A DNA stretch of 62,847 bases, filler included, from Stramenopiles sp. TOSAG23-3 (Eukaryota): the NCBI GenBank assembly GCA_900128585.1. It is 41 parts of 41 records of this genome, joined end to end, with 100 filler letters (N's around TTAATTAATTAA, not from the genome) between each part and the next. Parts side by side here need not be neighbours in the genome. Positions count along the whole stretch, not along the records: positions 37,006 to 38,437 come from LT645862.1; 40 more parts are not named here. One strand, 5' to 3'. Positions 3,451 to 44,563 of this stretch are shown in pieces. The translations under genes and the position numbers were made by a program. Below the pieces are notes generated by a model. It was not told the origin of the DNA and ran no database searches. It worked only from the letters and a program-made list of their open reading frames with translations. Positions within the stretch are counted from its first letter, which is position 1. The number at the start of each line of letters is the position of its first letter.

Positions 3451-5211
3451 CGGCTTTTTGGGAGAAGGGCCAGATTTATCAGAGCAATTCATTGTCAGTC
3501 CAGACGATGTTGTTTTCCCAAAACCACTGTCAATAGATCATTTTTTTAAGGACGTACAATCATAAACTATAGTAAAATTTATTATTTTAATCCCTGTGCT
3601 AAGCAATAAAGGCGTATATACATATATAATAGCCCCAAGAAATCCCAAAGACCGTTATCATCCTCTTGTGTACTCCATCGATATTCACTGCCGGTTCTTA
3701 CATTCCTTCGTTTGACTTCTTCTTCCCCACAGTCAACTTCTTCGTCCTCCCACACATGTCTGAAGTGGTTAATTGAACGGCGGTCTGTATTTCTTCTTTA
3801 AGGTGCTCGTTTTCTATTCGATGTATCCGTCAAGGTATGGCCAACAGAGGGCTCGGACCGTGCAGGAGTGTTGGTCGGGCCAGTCGTCAAAGCCGTCGAA
3901 GGCCAATCATGGTGTGGTGTAGGTGCGATGAGCGGTGGTGTAATTGTTTCCCCCGTTCCTGGTTCATTGTTTCGTTTGACCGACCTCTGTTGTGAGTATT
4001 CCTCTGTTCTTCGAAGATTGGCACGCATGATCTTCCTATTTCGTATGATTTTGATTAAAACATAAAAATATAAAGAGAGGCTGAATAGAAGCTGGCTGCA
4101 ATTTGAGCAGAATGTTCCTGGGGGAACTTGTATACAACACGGTCGCTCCTTGGACTCAGAATTTAACCATAACCGCAAAACAGCTTCAAAATGCTGCTGA
4201 TGGAATACACCATAGAGGCAGCTGTGAATTAGGCCAAGCCACCCGCAGCTGTTGCAAGAATGCGCAATGTCCAGTGGGAAGCGCGAAGGGGCGGGCGGAT
4301 CACAATTCCAATCGCGAACCAGAGGATGGACCCAAACACCCTCATCTCGTGGAAGCCAGCGTTGCGTAACGCGGCAAAAAACACGTCCTCGATTTCTATA
4401 CGGATTACAGCATGTAAAATATGTTTTGTTTTGTTTGCACGCCTTTTCTCACATCCCCGGTTGTATCGGTGTAGGGGGAGAAAACCCACCATATGGATTC
4501 CCAGACAATTTCGGTGATGGTGGTGGTGGTGGTGGGGGTGGGGGGGNNNNNNNNNNNNNNNNNNNNNNNNNNNNNNNNNNNNNNNNNNNNTTAATTAATT
4601 AANNNNNNNNNNNNNNNNNNNNNNNNNNNNNNNNNNNNNNNNNNNNAGTAGACGACAACAAACAAAAACGAGTAATAAGAAAACAGCAAGAAGATGGATG
4701 ATGAAAGAAAGACTAACTGAAGAAGACGACGATAATACACACTTTTATTATAGACTAATAAAAAGAAGAATCTCCCTCCTCTCTTCTAAAAAAAAAAAAA
4801 AATTTTTTTTAATAATTAAAATTATTAATTATTATTAATAATAAAATAGACGACTAATTATTATTGATTGAAGAAAAAAGTATTAACGACTAACTAACTA
4901 ACGAACTGACACTTTGTTTGCTTCGTAACATAATGCTTTGAATAAGAAGTGTAATTTTATATGTTTTTTGAAAACGATTATTGGGTAGTTGGAACAGTTT
5001 TATTCTCTGTATACGAATTGGTGTAGTGTTTATTATTTGTTGCCAATTCGAACGGACGTGGGGGAGAACAAGAAGAAGAACCGTCGTGTACTACAACGCG
5101 CCGTGGAACGGGAAGGGGAAAGGAAAGGGTTCTAGGGAACAACGCGGAAGGATTTTGTAGTCCGTGCGTGGGAAGTTTCATCGTCCATTTTTGAAAAATA
5201 TTGCGGGAAAA

Positions 5212-37005: not shown

Positions 37006-37262
37006 TTCAGCTCCCGCGCACCGTGTGTCTTGGTTTTCATCATCCCGGTGATCCAAAATTTCCACGTACTGTTGGGCATCATGGAGTACTCTTTGTTTCT
37101 TAAAATTGCCCGCACGAACTCGTCCTCTTCCAGCGCGTTGTTTTTGTCCATATCAAGCTTTGAGAAAAAAGACTTTGCTTTTCCTACACTATTTTTATTC
37201 AGGTTTGTTTCGAGGGTGAGAAATTCGTCAAAGGTTACGATGCCGTTGCGGTTTCGGTCAAG
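37006..37262 (-). CDS. EF-hand protein fragment
   Basis: DRNRNGIVTFDEF and DMDKNNALEEDEF; no 5' end. Confidence 0.7.
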
Positions 37263-37673
37263 GTGAAGAGCATAGCGTACAAAGGCGACAGCGCAAAAAA
37301 GGCCCGGCGGCGCGAAATAGCTGAAGGAAAAGCTGTCAAGGACATGACGGCCGACGAGAGGCGGGACATGGAACTGCTGCAGGCAGCTGAGCATCGGCAA
37401 AGGCAAGGGAAGATCAAAAAGAAGCACGATGACGCGAAGAAGGGAGGGCATGGAAAGTACGTTCACAGGCACAACGATGACCTGGAAATTAACTCGGAGG
37501 ACACAAACGCGGAAATAAATGTAAAGCTGAAGAAGAAGAGGGACATAGAGCACGAGCTACTTGCTAAAAAAATTGAAATGCATTCGAAGAAGGTGGCCGG
37601 CAAGCAGCGCAGGAGGCGAGGCGCAGATGACGACGACGAAATAGAGGCTTTGATACGTGGCAAGGTGCGGTAA
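37263..37673 (+). CDS. C-terminal fragment of a charged hypothetical protein
   Basis: K/E/D/R-rich frame ending TAA at 37673; no ATG start. Confidence 0.65.
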   Translation: MKSIAYKGDSAKKARRREIAEGKAVKDMTADERRDMELLQAAEHRQRQGKIKKKHDDAKKGGHGKYVHRHNDDLEINSEDTNAEINVKLKKKRDIEHELLAKKIEMHSKKVAGKQRRRRGADDDDEIEALIRGKVR

Positions 37674-37865
37674 AGCGTGGGAGAAAGAAATTTAAACACA
37701 CCAGGCAAGTTATCTCTTGCGTTATTCTTCAATTTGGTGTCGTGTAAATGTGGTTGTTCTACTGTAATGGGCCCTGTTAAATTGGATCATTGGCTAGTGT
37801 TTGGGAAAGTACCTCCTCCACTCAATAAACATTTACGCGTGTTAAGAAATTTATTAAAACACTCT

Positions 37866-37890
37866 AATAACAGCCAATTTTCTTGTTTTT
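37866..37890 (-). mobile_element. Dispersed element copy 4 with target-site duplication
   Basis: AATAACAGCCAATTTTCTTGTTTTT flanked by TTTATTAAAACACTCT at 37850-37865 and 37888-37903. Confidence 0.9.
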
Positions 37891-37904
37891 ATTAAAACAC
37901 TCTT

Positions 37905-38437
37905 TCATTTACCAAACCGCTTCTCCATGGCGGCCAACCGGGCGGCCCTCATTTCTTCCCTGGACTTCGCTTTGGATCCGCCGCCCAACGTGTTCGAGGT
38001 GGCCATCACCTGCCTCCGGGGTTTCTCGTTTACGACAGAGCTGCCACTTCCAAACTTTCCGCCTTGGTTTTGCTTGTTTGCTTGATACCGTTGGGACGCC
38101 GCGCTCGTGGCCCCCCCCATGGTGTTCACGACACCTTTCATTTGCCCGTACGACTGTGGCTCTTTTCGAAGACCTTTCATTTTTCCACCAGTGCTGCGGA
38201 CACTTTTCGTGCGACCGGCGACGCCGGTCTTTATGTTCGACCTCCGCTTCTGGTCGCCGTGAATGGGGTTCCCACCAAGGTCGCACGCTCCCGCGCCTCG
38301 GCGGTTGAATTTAGGGTTTCGCGCCAGCTTCTTTCGGTTGGGGTTTGCCATTTTCGTCGAAACGGTGTGGATGGTGGTGCCGCCCTGGCGGACCGCCTTG
38401 GTCGTGATCATCGAGCCTTTGTCGTTTTTGAAGGCCG
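37905..38437 (-). CDS. Basic G/K/R-rich hypothetical protein, 5'-partial
   Basis: Ends LGGG...REEMRAARLAAMEKRFGK. Confidence 0.7.
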
Positions 38438-43032: not shown

Positions 43033-43372
43033 NNNNNNNNNNNNNNNNNNNNNNNNNNNNNNNNNNNNNNNNNNNNTTAATTAATTAANNNNNNNNNNNN
43101 NNNNNNNNNNNNNNNNNNNNNNNNNNNNNNNNTGACGATGCAACAGCACCGGCACTTCCTGCCTTGCGCACGCAGACCTGCGATTTACCGCCGTGGCCAT
43201 GTCGTACTGCAGGTCCGTTTTAACCATCGCCTCCCCACAACTCGCCCCACCTGTCGTTCCAATTGGTCCAACTGCTTTGGCAGATCAAATGTTATTGTTC
43301 GTCTTCTTTTTTGATTGTTCTGTACGCATGTTTTTTTTGCGCTTCATCCTGTCGGAAAACAATTAAAAGAAA

Positions 43373-44563
43373 ATGATCAAAACTATTGTTGTGACACTTG
43401 CGGCCATTGCGTTCGTCGCCAATGGCGAATCGAATCTTCGATCCAACACCGCCGCTGAAGTCGAAGGGAATCGTTGCAAGAGATCGGATCTCTCCAAGGA
43501 CAAAAATTTGCTCAACAATTACTGCCGGGACCGCACATATCTCTGGAACAATCAATACTGTATGTTGAAATGCCCAGATAACAGCAAAGTCAAGGTCAAG
43601 TGCAAAGGATCCCAATGGGAGCCACAGCGTTGCGCTCCCACCGCTCCCAGCGCTCCCACGGGAGACAAATTTTACGCAGTCATGGGCAAGATTTCAGGGC
43701 GCAAGAAGCCACTGGCACCCGCTATCGGCGTGCACTGCCTCAGTCGCGGCACGACAAAAGCCACGGAAGCCCCGTACAACAACAAAATTTGGGGCCAAAA
43801 GCATGGTGCGTTGTCCGTGCAATGCTGTGGCGCAGAGAACTTCCGTTCCAACACCGACAACAATAAAAAGTGGGTGGTCAAGGAACAGCAGGGCGTTTTT
43901 GCCACCCGCTTCACTCGCAACGTTGTCCCGGGCGGTCAGTGGAATCTGGACGCCTGTAAGAGTGGTAAGACTTTCGACGAGGCATTTGATATTTGTGCGA
44001 AGAATGGTCTCCGTCTGTGTACCAAGGACGAAGTGATGGCGAACGAGCAAAACGTAGGCTGCAATACAGGTTCAAACTTGCAGTGGACTGGCACACCATG
44101 CGACGGAGCAGTCGGTGGAACCCCGAATAAGGACGTCTCGAAGGAACTCAATGAAATTCGTGACCAGTTCAAAAATCTCATCGCCGCAGAGGAACCGGCG
44201 ACCAAAGAGGAGGAGCAAAGGGATGATAAATTTGAGTGCACCACAGACAAGAACTTCATCATAGGCAGCTACAGCCAAATCGAGGTGGTCCTTAACGGCC
44301 AGCCGAGTCGCAAAATTTTCGATGAATACGAAGCAGTAGCGTTCTGCAGAAACGAGTGCGACAAGAGAGAGGCATCCGGAGAAGGCTGCAAAGCCTTTTG
44401 GTACCAGCGCCACAGACCAAATCCAAACGAACGTCGTGGAACCCACGGGTACAAAGTGTGTGCTTTTTACAAGAAAAACGGACGTGCAGTACGACATGGC
44501 CACGGCGGTAAATCGCAGGTCTGCGTGCGCAAGGCAGGAAGTGCCGGTGCTGTTGCATCGTCA
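43373..44563 (+). CDS. Secreted multi-domain Cys-rich protein with a PAN/apple-like module (3'-partial)
   Basis: Signal peptide; KTFDEAFDICAKNGLRLCT module; C...C...GCKAFWY...C PAN-like pattern. Confidence 0.75.

What the first reader, a model, noticed from the sequence alone, without database searches (positions are those of the whole stretch)
37850..37903. Second TSD-flanked micro-insertion, 13-16 bp duplication, abutting a stop codon
Seen: TTTATTAAAACACTCT at 37850-37865 and 37888-37903 encloses the reverse-strand head (about 22-25 nt). The duplication ends immediately next to the stop codon of the minus-strand gene (37905) and lies between convergent genes. The T-run of the element overlaps the TSD by 3 nt, as expected from priming microhomology. 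Established: variable TSD length (11 versus 13-16 here) favours non-LTR-type insertion over DDE transposases, which give fixed TSD lengths.
Basis: partly seen in the sequence, partly recalled or inferred. Interest (0 to 1): 0.72.

Follow-up and report, generated by a model that had tools for sequence, protein, structure and literature searches.

The report
Polymorphic LINE tail stub behind gene
The tiny insert is the last 22-25 bases of a LINE-type jumping gene, sitting between duplicated target DNA just behind a gene's stop codon and missing from the same spot in four ocean samples; it was likely pasted by the ordinary copy-and-paste route and cut short, one of hundreds of such stubs that pile up where genes end facing each other.

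Summary
A 16-nt direct repeat (37850-37865, 37888-37903) encloses a 22-nt insert whose core has 894 exact copies genome-wide. The empty site, with one repeat copy, is seen in 4 of 4 runs laid (3 exact, 1 with a nearby variant). The insert is not a reverse-strand 'head'. It is the + strand 3' tail, ending in T4-5, of a single-ORF LINE (RT, CCHC, restriction-like endonuclease). One contig (L382) carries the open RT-to-C-terminus frame, a 114-nt UTR and this exact tail; the best PDB matches are R2 proteins. Duplication lengths run 7-16 nt, so they are not fixed. Copies are mostly stubs (median 40 nt). In 400 kb not chosen for the element, 18 tails lay in convergent spacers, 2 in tandem, 0 in divergent and 0 in ORFs, at equal A+T. 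The host is likely a marine stramenopile (MAST-4 label on a relative). This scan found the same family earlier on other DNA of this genome. Verdict: new member of a known kind; the gene-end bias is the interesting part.

The parts
37850..37865 (+). Left copy of the target-site duplication (the single copy in the empty allele)
   Evidence: empty allele
37866..37887 (+). Inserted 3' terminal stub of the LINE (22 nt; its T run reaches 37890, overlapping the right repeat by 3 nt)
   Evidence: 894 exact copies of the 24-mer 37866-37889; same letters end the 3' UTR of the RT ORF in L382 at 3667-3691
37888..37903 (+). Right copy of the target-site duplication
37905..38411 (-). Host ORF whose stop codon (37905-37907) lies 1 nt from the duplication; no Pfam family
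37263..37673 (+). 3' part of the convergent host ORF (lysine/arginine-rich, no Pfam family)

Best explanation
The 38 extra bases are a 13-16 nt target duplication plus the last 22-25 nt of a T-tailed, single-ORF LINE (RT + CCHC + restriction-like endonuclease), likely inserted by target-primed reverse transcription that stopped after about 25 nt. Shown: identity with the LINE's 3' end, the empty allele, variable TSDs in the family, A after the T run in 232 of 253 copies, stub-dominated lengths, and the bias to convergent spacers. Inferred steps: the endonuclease nicks the bottom strand at an A+T-rich site centred on T^A; the freed 3' end (AAA here) primes on the RNA's U-rich tail, probably pairing with it; RT leaves the template almost at once; a second nick 13-16 nt away is filled in and makes the duplication. 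The copy is probably recent, since it is absent from all 4 runs laid.
For: L382 holds one open frame of 1191 aa from the RT motifs to the C-terminus, then 114 nt ending in the exact tail. A profile of 11 relatives hits R2 proteins best (9dou, E 5e-21), with aligned RT and, weakly, CCHC/RLE stretches. G000 holds the RT at 97% and 88% to P0037, and its pieces cover 1287 of 1689 residues of P0032 at 75% identity or more; L134 joins the CCHC/RLE part, broken by stops near its end, to the tail. Empty site in 4 of 4 runs; a second filled/empty pair, L214 vs L379. TSD of 7 nt or more: 27 of 116 G000 copies (control 0.8%) and 34 of 124 collection copies (control 1.4%). Copies share the 3' end and vary at the 5' end. 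Summed contig depth falls from the tail bin (9,153-40,533) to 16-497 in the upstream coding part (L134:1431-2658) in 4 of 4 runs (not a copy number).
Against: 89 of 116 G000 copies and 90 of 124 collection copies have no exact adjacent duplication of 7 nt or more. The filled allele at this exact site was seen in none of the 4 runs laid on it, so it rests on this assembly alone, whose contig also carries an inversion not seen in 3 runs. No single G000 stretch that I fetched holds a whole element. Pfam RVT_1 does not hit the full-length proteins P0032, P0022, P0046. Length figures come from fragmented assemblies, which lose long copies.
Confidence: 0.92

Rival explanations
1. The stub is copied from a short non-coding RNA (a SINE or micro-element) that borrows the LINE's protein, not from the LINE mRNA itself.
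For: Two 3' UTR types (A, B) share only the last ~35 nt, most copies are 24-70 nt, and none of 103 exceeds 300 nt. Read-through of host genes into stubs could supply short templates.
Against: Walking upstream from the tail leads without a break into the LINE ORF in both types. 5' ends are scattered, with no common start.
Confidence: 0.12
2. Endonuclease-independent capture: the LINE's cDNA tail patches double-strand breaks or stalled forks in A+T-rich spacers, and the duplication comes from staggered breaks.
For: Most copies lack a clean TSD, and many carry nested, inverted or extra letters at the 5' junction.
Against: 3' ends are intact with a fixed T4-5 run in 213 of 253 copies and A follows in 232 of 253; the search pattern demanded an intact tail, so the first count is partly built in. 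The protein keeps CCHC and PD-(D/E)xK-like residues.
Confidence: 0.08
3. Amplification or assembly artefact at this one site.
For: Filled allele absent from 4 of 4 runs; the same contig has an inversion of 37006-37269 relative to X1, X2 and X4.
Against: An artefact would need two template switches and an exact 13-16 nt duplication. Other stubs are shared, filled, between G000 and other assemblies at 14 of 15 orthologous sites, including tail-only L268/L058 (some of those assemblies may share source material with G000).
Confidence: 0.04
4. Footprint or miniature copy of a DNA transposon (DDE).
For: Some copies stand as inverted pairs (C7).
Against: TSD length is variable, only one end is conserved, and that end belongs to an RT-encoding ORF.
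Confidence: 0.01

Closest known systems
Entamoeba histolytica EhLINE1/EhSINE1 (PMC1635306, passages read)
   Same: Restriction-like endonuclease, no fixed target gene, intergenic insertion only, T-rich 3' tail proposed to pair with the A-rich bottom strand, a target duplication (22 bp in their example).
   Different: Their nuclease prefers GCATT; here the site is T^A in A+T-rich DNA. TSDs here are 7-16 nt and copies are mostly 24-70 nt stubs. The passages I read report no bias to convergent spacers.
R2 retrotransposons (PMC4838377 and PMC7650587, passages read; PDB 9dou, 9nl3, 8gh6)
   Same: One ORF with RT, then CCHC, then a PD-(D/E)xK-type endonuclease with RH- and K..KY-like motifs; target-primed insertion; frequent 5' truncation.
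   Different: R2 targets 28S rDNA; this family is dispersed over at least 894 sites. RH reads PH here. No N-terminal zinc finger or Myb was seen by Pfam. Truncation is far more extreme.
CRE clade (CRE/SLACS/CZAR and relatives)
   Same: RLE type, single ORF; RT motif spelling resembles CRE-like elements (recalled, from no call).
   Different: CRE members insert in spliced-leader genes (PMC1635306 passage); this one does not show a repeated-gene target. Clade membership was not tested with named references.

Membership tests
RLE-type non-LTR retrotransposon | RT domain of non-LTR type in the element's ORF | tested here: met
   Profile hits R2 RT at E 5e-21, L1-type and group II RTs weaker; motifs at P0032 397-712; Pfam RVT_1 misses these three proteins but marks 5 of 8 relatives
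RLE-type non-LTR retrotransposon | CCHC motif followed by PD-(D/E)xK endonuclease, C-terminal to RT | tested here: met
   Invariant C1235, H1254, C1258, H1268, D1391, near-invariant E1406, K1409 in 11 sequences; aligns to the R2Tg C-terminal domain, but only at 9.8 bits on its own
RLE-type non-LTR retrotransposon | Shared 3' end, variable 5' truncation, no terminal repeats | tested here: met
   128 copies; depth gradient
RLE-type non-LTR retrotransposon | Variable-length target-site duplication | tested here: met
   7-16 nt in 61 copies; absent by the strict rule in 179 of 240 usable copies
RLE-type non-LTR retrotransposon | Target-primed reverse transcription as the biochemical route | not testable with these tools
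   Needs purified protein and RNA
R2 clade | Site-specific insertion into 28S rDNA | tested here: not met
   Copies dispersed in intergenic spacers
CRE clade | Grouping with named CRE elements in an RT tree | not tested
   No named CRE reference came back or 67
SINE | Non-coding body with a defined 5' end | tested here: not met
   5' ends scattered; longer copies run into the LINE ORF
DDE transposon / MITE | Terminal inverted repeats and fixed TSD length | tested here: not met

The most novel reading that the evidence does not exclude
This LINE is actively steered to transcription-termination zones, above all where two genes converge, and its RT aborts after a few dozen bases as the usual outcome. 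It would then be a non-site-specific RLE retrotransposon with a terminator-targeting rule, whose stubs keep rewriting the 3' spacers of an abundant marine protist. The alternative not excluded is plain purifying selection against promoter and coding insertions.
Probability: 0.3. Interest if true: 0.65.

Novelty: new member of a known kind. Interest (0 to 1): 0.33.

Why it matters
The single insertion is an ordinary non-LTR event. The family is useful in three ways. It is an RLE LINE that Pfam RVT_1 misses, so standard scans undercount it. Its stubs are present/absent among populations, which makes them markers for an uncultured marine protist. Their near-confinement to convergent spacers, at equal A+T content, poses a testable question: targeting to gene ends or selection.

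Tried and rejected
Pfam RVT_1 search of G000 gave 8 hits whose ORFs look like LTR-type and DIRS-like elements (my reading of motifs, recalled), none ending in the tail; this first suggested that no LINE was present, wrongly. A single-sequence PDB search with P0032 found nothing; the profile did. The idea that the duplicated minus-strand AATAAA is a poly(A) signal got no support: 22 sense vs 13 antisense in 158 post-stop stretches, but 24 vs 16 in 234 pre-start stretches. No relative in viral contigs. Searches for named clade members returned unnamed proteins. One search was swamped by repeat matches and was redone by alignment; 2 of its 17 pairs (L278, L279) were dropped as paralogous matches. 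One search stopped on an index error after the TSD tables; the remaining counts were run. Literature: searches (extreme truncation; convergent-gene insertion; poly(A)-only insertions) returned no paper; one returned one unrelated listing; two listed MAST papers, of which I read passages of PMC13724720 only (no occurrence of 'retrotransposon' in its main text); supplements were not read and may list repeats.

Full report
Setting. The window is a string of 41 unrelated contigs of about 1.4 kb joined by N spacers, from a 28.4-Mb assembly in 7088 contigs. The finding lies on the piece 37006-38437, which is held by marine metagenome runs. A cluster of LINE relatives contains a protein labelled Stramenopile MAST-4 (that cluster is 47% identical to the query), so a MAST-4-like host is inferred, not shown.

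Observation. The 16-nt repeat and the 22-nt enclosed piece are at the stated coordinates. One base separates the repeat from the TGA of the minus-strand ORF, and the plus-strand ORF ends at 37673, so the spacer is convergent. The enclosed 24-mer has 894 exact copies in the genome and its reversed control has 0; 280 copies carry 11 more shared bases upstream.

Empty site. In contigs of 4 runs from 4 studies laid on this piece, X1, X2 and X8 skip exactly 38 bases with 16 letters fitting either side, and X4 is empty with a small variant. None showed the filled allele. Thus the 38 bases are an insertion plus a duplication, and the allele is rare or private. The same call shows 37006-37269 inverted against X1, X2 and X4, which looks like an amplification chimera (inference), so an artefact at this one site cannot be fully excluded. 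Against that, 14 of 15 orthologous sites found between collection loci and G000 stretches are filled in both, including a tail-only stub, and one (L214 vs L379) is filled there and empty in G000 (2 of 17 pairs dropped as paralogous; some assemblies may share source material with G000).

What the insert is. Copies share the 3' end and extend upstream to different lengths, in two UTR types. Walking upstream led into coding sequence with a cysteine-histidine motif. Relatives of that protein are single ORFs of 1422-1689 aa. A profile of 11 relatives matches R2 retrotransposon structures best (E 5e-21), over the RT and weakly over the CCHC/endonuclease part, the layout described for R2Bm in PMC4838377 (passages read). 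G000 holds the RT at 97% and 88% identity and pieces covering 1287 of 1689 residues. L382, a contig filed in a bacterial bin, has one open frame of 1191 aa from the RT motifs to the stop, 114 nt of UTR and the exact tail ending in five T's. So the insert is the LINE's extreme 3' end on the + strand. Pfam RVT_1 misses the full-length proteins, which is why the first RT search showed no LINE.

TSD distribution. Of 128 exact copies in fetched G000 DNA, 116 had an intact 5' flank; 36 had 6 or more, 27 had 7 or more and 18 had 8 or more duplicated letters beyond the T run (swapped-flank control 2.7%, 0.8%, 0.4%). Of 134 copies from a metagenome collection scan, 124 were usable and 34 had 7 or more (control 1.4%). 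Over these 61, maximal lengths run 7-16 nt, most often 11-12; this site's 16 is at the top. The lower bound is my threshold. The other 179 of 240 have no such repeat: short TSDs cannot be told from chance, and nesting, age or target deletion may explain others (inference). A follows the T run in 232 of 253 copies. 43 of 61 TSDs start with 1-3 T's (flank T 0.35), and the T run stays mostly 4-5. This fits pairing of the U tail with the nicked strand, as proposed for EhLINE1 (PMC1635306, passages read), but also a cut at T^A without pairing.

Truncation. In 103 copies from loci picked by the tail alone, the median length is 40 nt, 36 are 30 nt or less and none exceeds 300; the collection set has the same median. 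Assemblies lose long copies, but summed contig depth along L134 drops from 9,153-40,533 at the tail to 16-497 in the upstream coding part in 4 of 4 runs. That figure is not a copy number and both UTR types share the tail. 5' truncation is normal for R2 (PMC7650587, passages read); this degree is unusual by my recollection, and searches found no paper to compare.

Position. Prompted by earlier notes of this scan, I tested location with a rough ORF caller. In 400 kb fetched without regard to the element, 25 tails were found: 18 in convergent spacers (11 of 40 occupied), 2 in tandem (2 of 41), 0 in divergent (0 of 36, 42.6 kb), 0 in called ORFs and 5 unplaced. Tail-free spacers have equal A+T (0.65-0.66) and no fewer T^A sites in divergent ones; Fisher p 5e-4 for convergent vs divergent. 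Tail-selected loci gave 65, 8 and 0. In convergent spacers the median distance to a stop is 136 nt and 64 of 96 are antisense to the nearer gene, as here (neighbours are not independent). Abutting a stop is thus the near end of a general bias. Targeting and selection are not separated by these data.

Verdict. Observation confirmed; interpretation right on mechanism class, wrong on orientation, unsettled on microhomology. It works like an EhLINE/R2-type target-primed insertion and belongs to the RLE non-LTR retrotransposons; it is not R2 proper, and CRE membership is untested. I found no description of the family in searches, and supplements were not read. The scan had noted the same family on other DNA of this genome.

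Noticed in passing
window 37006-37269: This EF-hand-like coding stretch is inverted relative to contigs of runs X1, X2 and X4, with 37256-37269 present twice there; it looks like an amplification chimera in this assembly.
   Followed up: partly
   Followed up: yes
window 715, 6018, 39437, 40755, 56475, 62773: Further copies or variants of the same tail, with longer upstream parts in most.
   Followed up: partly
L012, L073, L113, L312 and others: A second recurring T-ended repeat of about 45 nt lies in the same spacers, often nested with this tail; possibly the tail of another LINE family such as that of P0046 or L172.
   Followed up: no
L382 (CALGTL010000157.1); P0032, P0046: This eukaryotic LINE sits in records labelled as bacterial MAGs (Dehalococcoidia, Gammaproteobacteria), likely binning contamination.
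   Followed up: no
L059-L065, L036: LTR-type and DIRS-like retroelements with long open frames are also present in G000.
   Followed up: no
window 43133-44563: The contig's two ends are long inverted copies of each other, possibly another fold-back chimera.
   Followed up: no
L098, L099, L137, L150, L205: Many spacers hold nested and inverted patches from different parts of the LINE's 3' region, suggesting repeated insertion into earlier stubs or template jumping.
   Followed up: no
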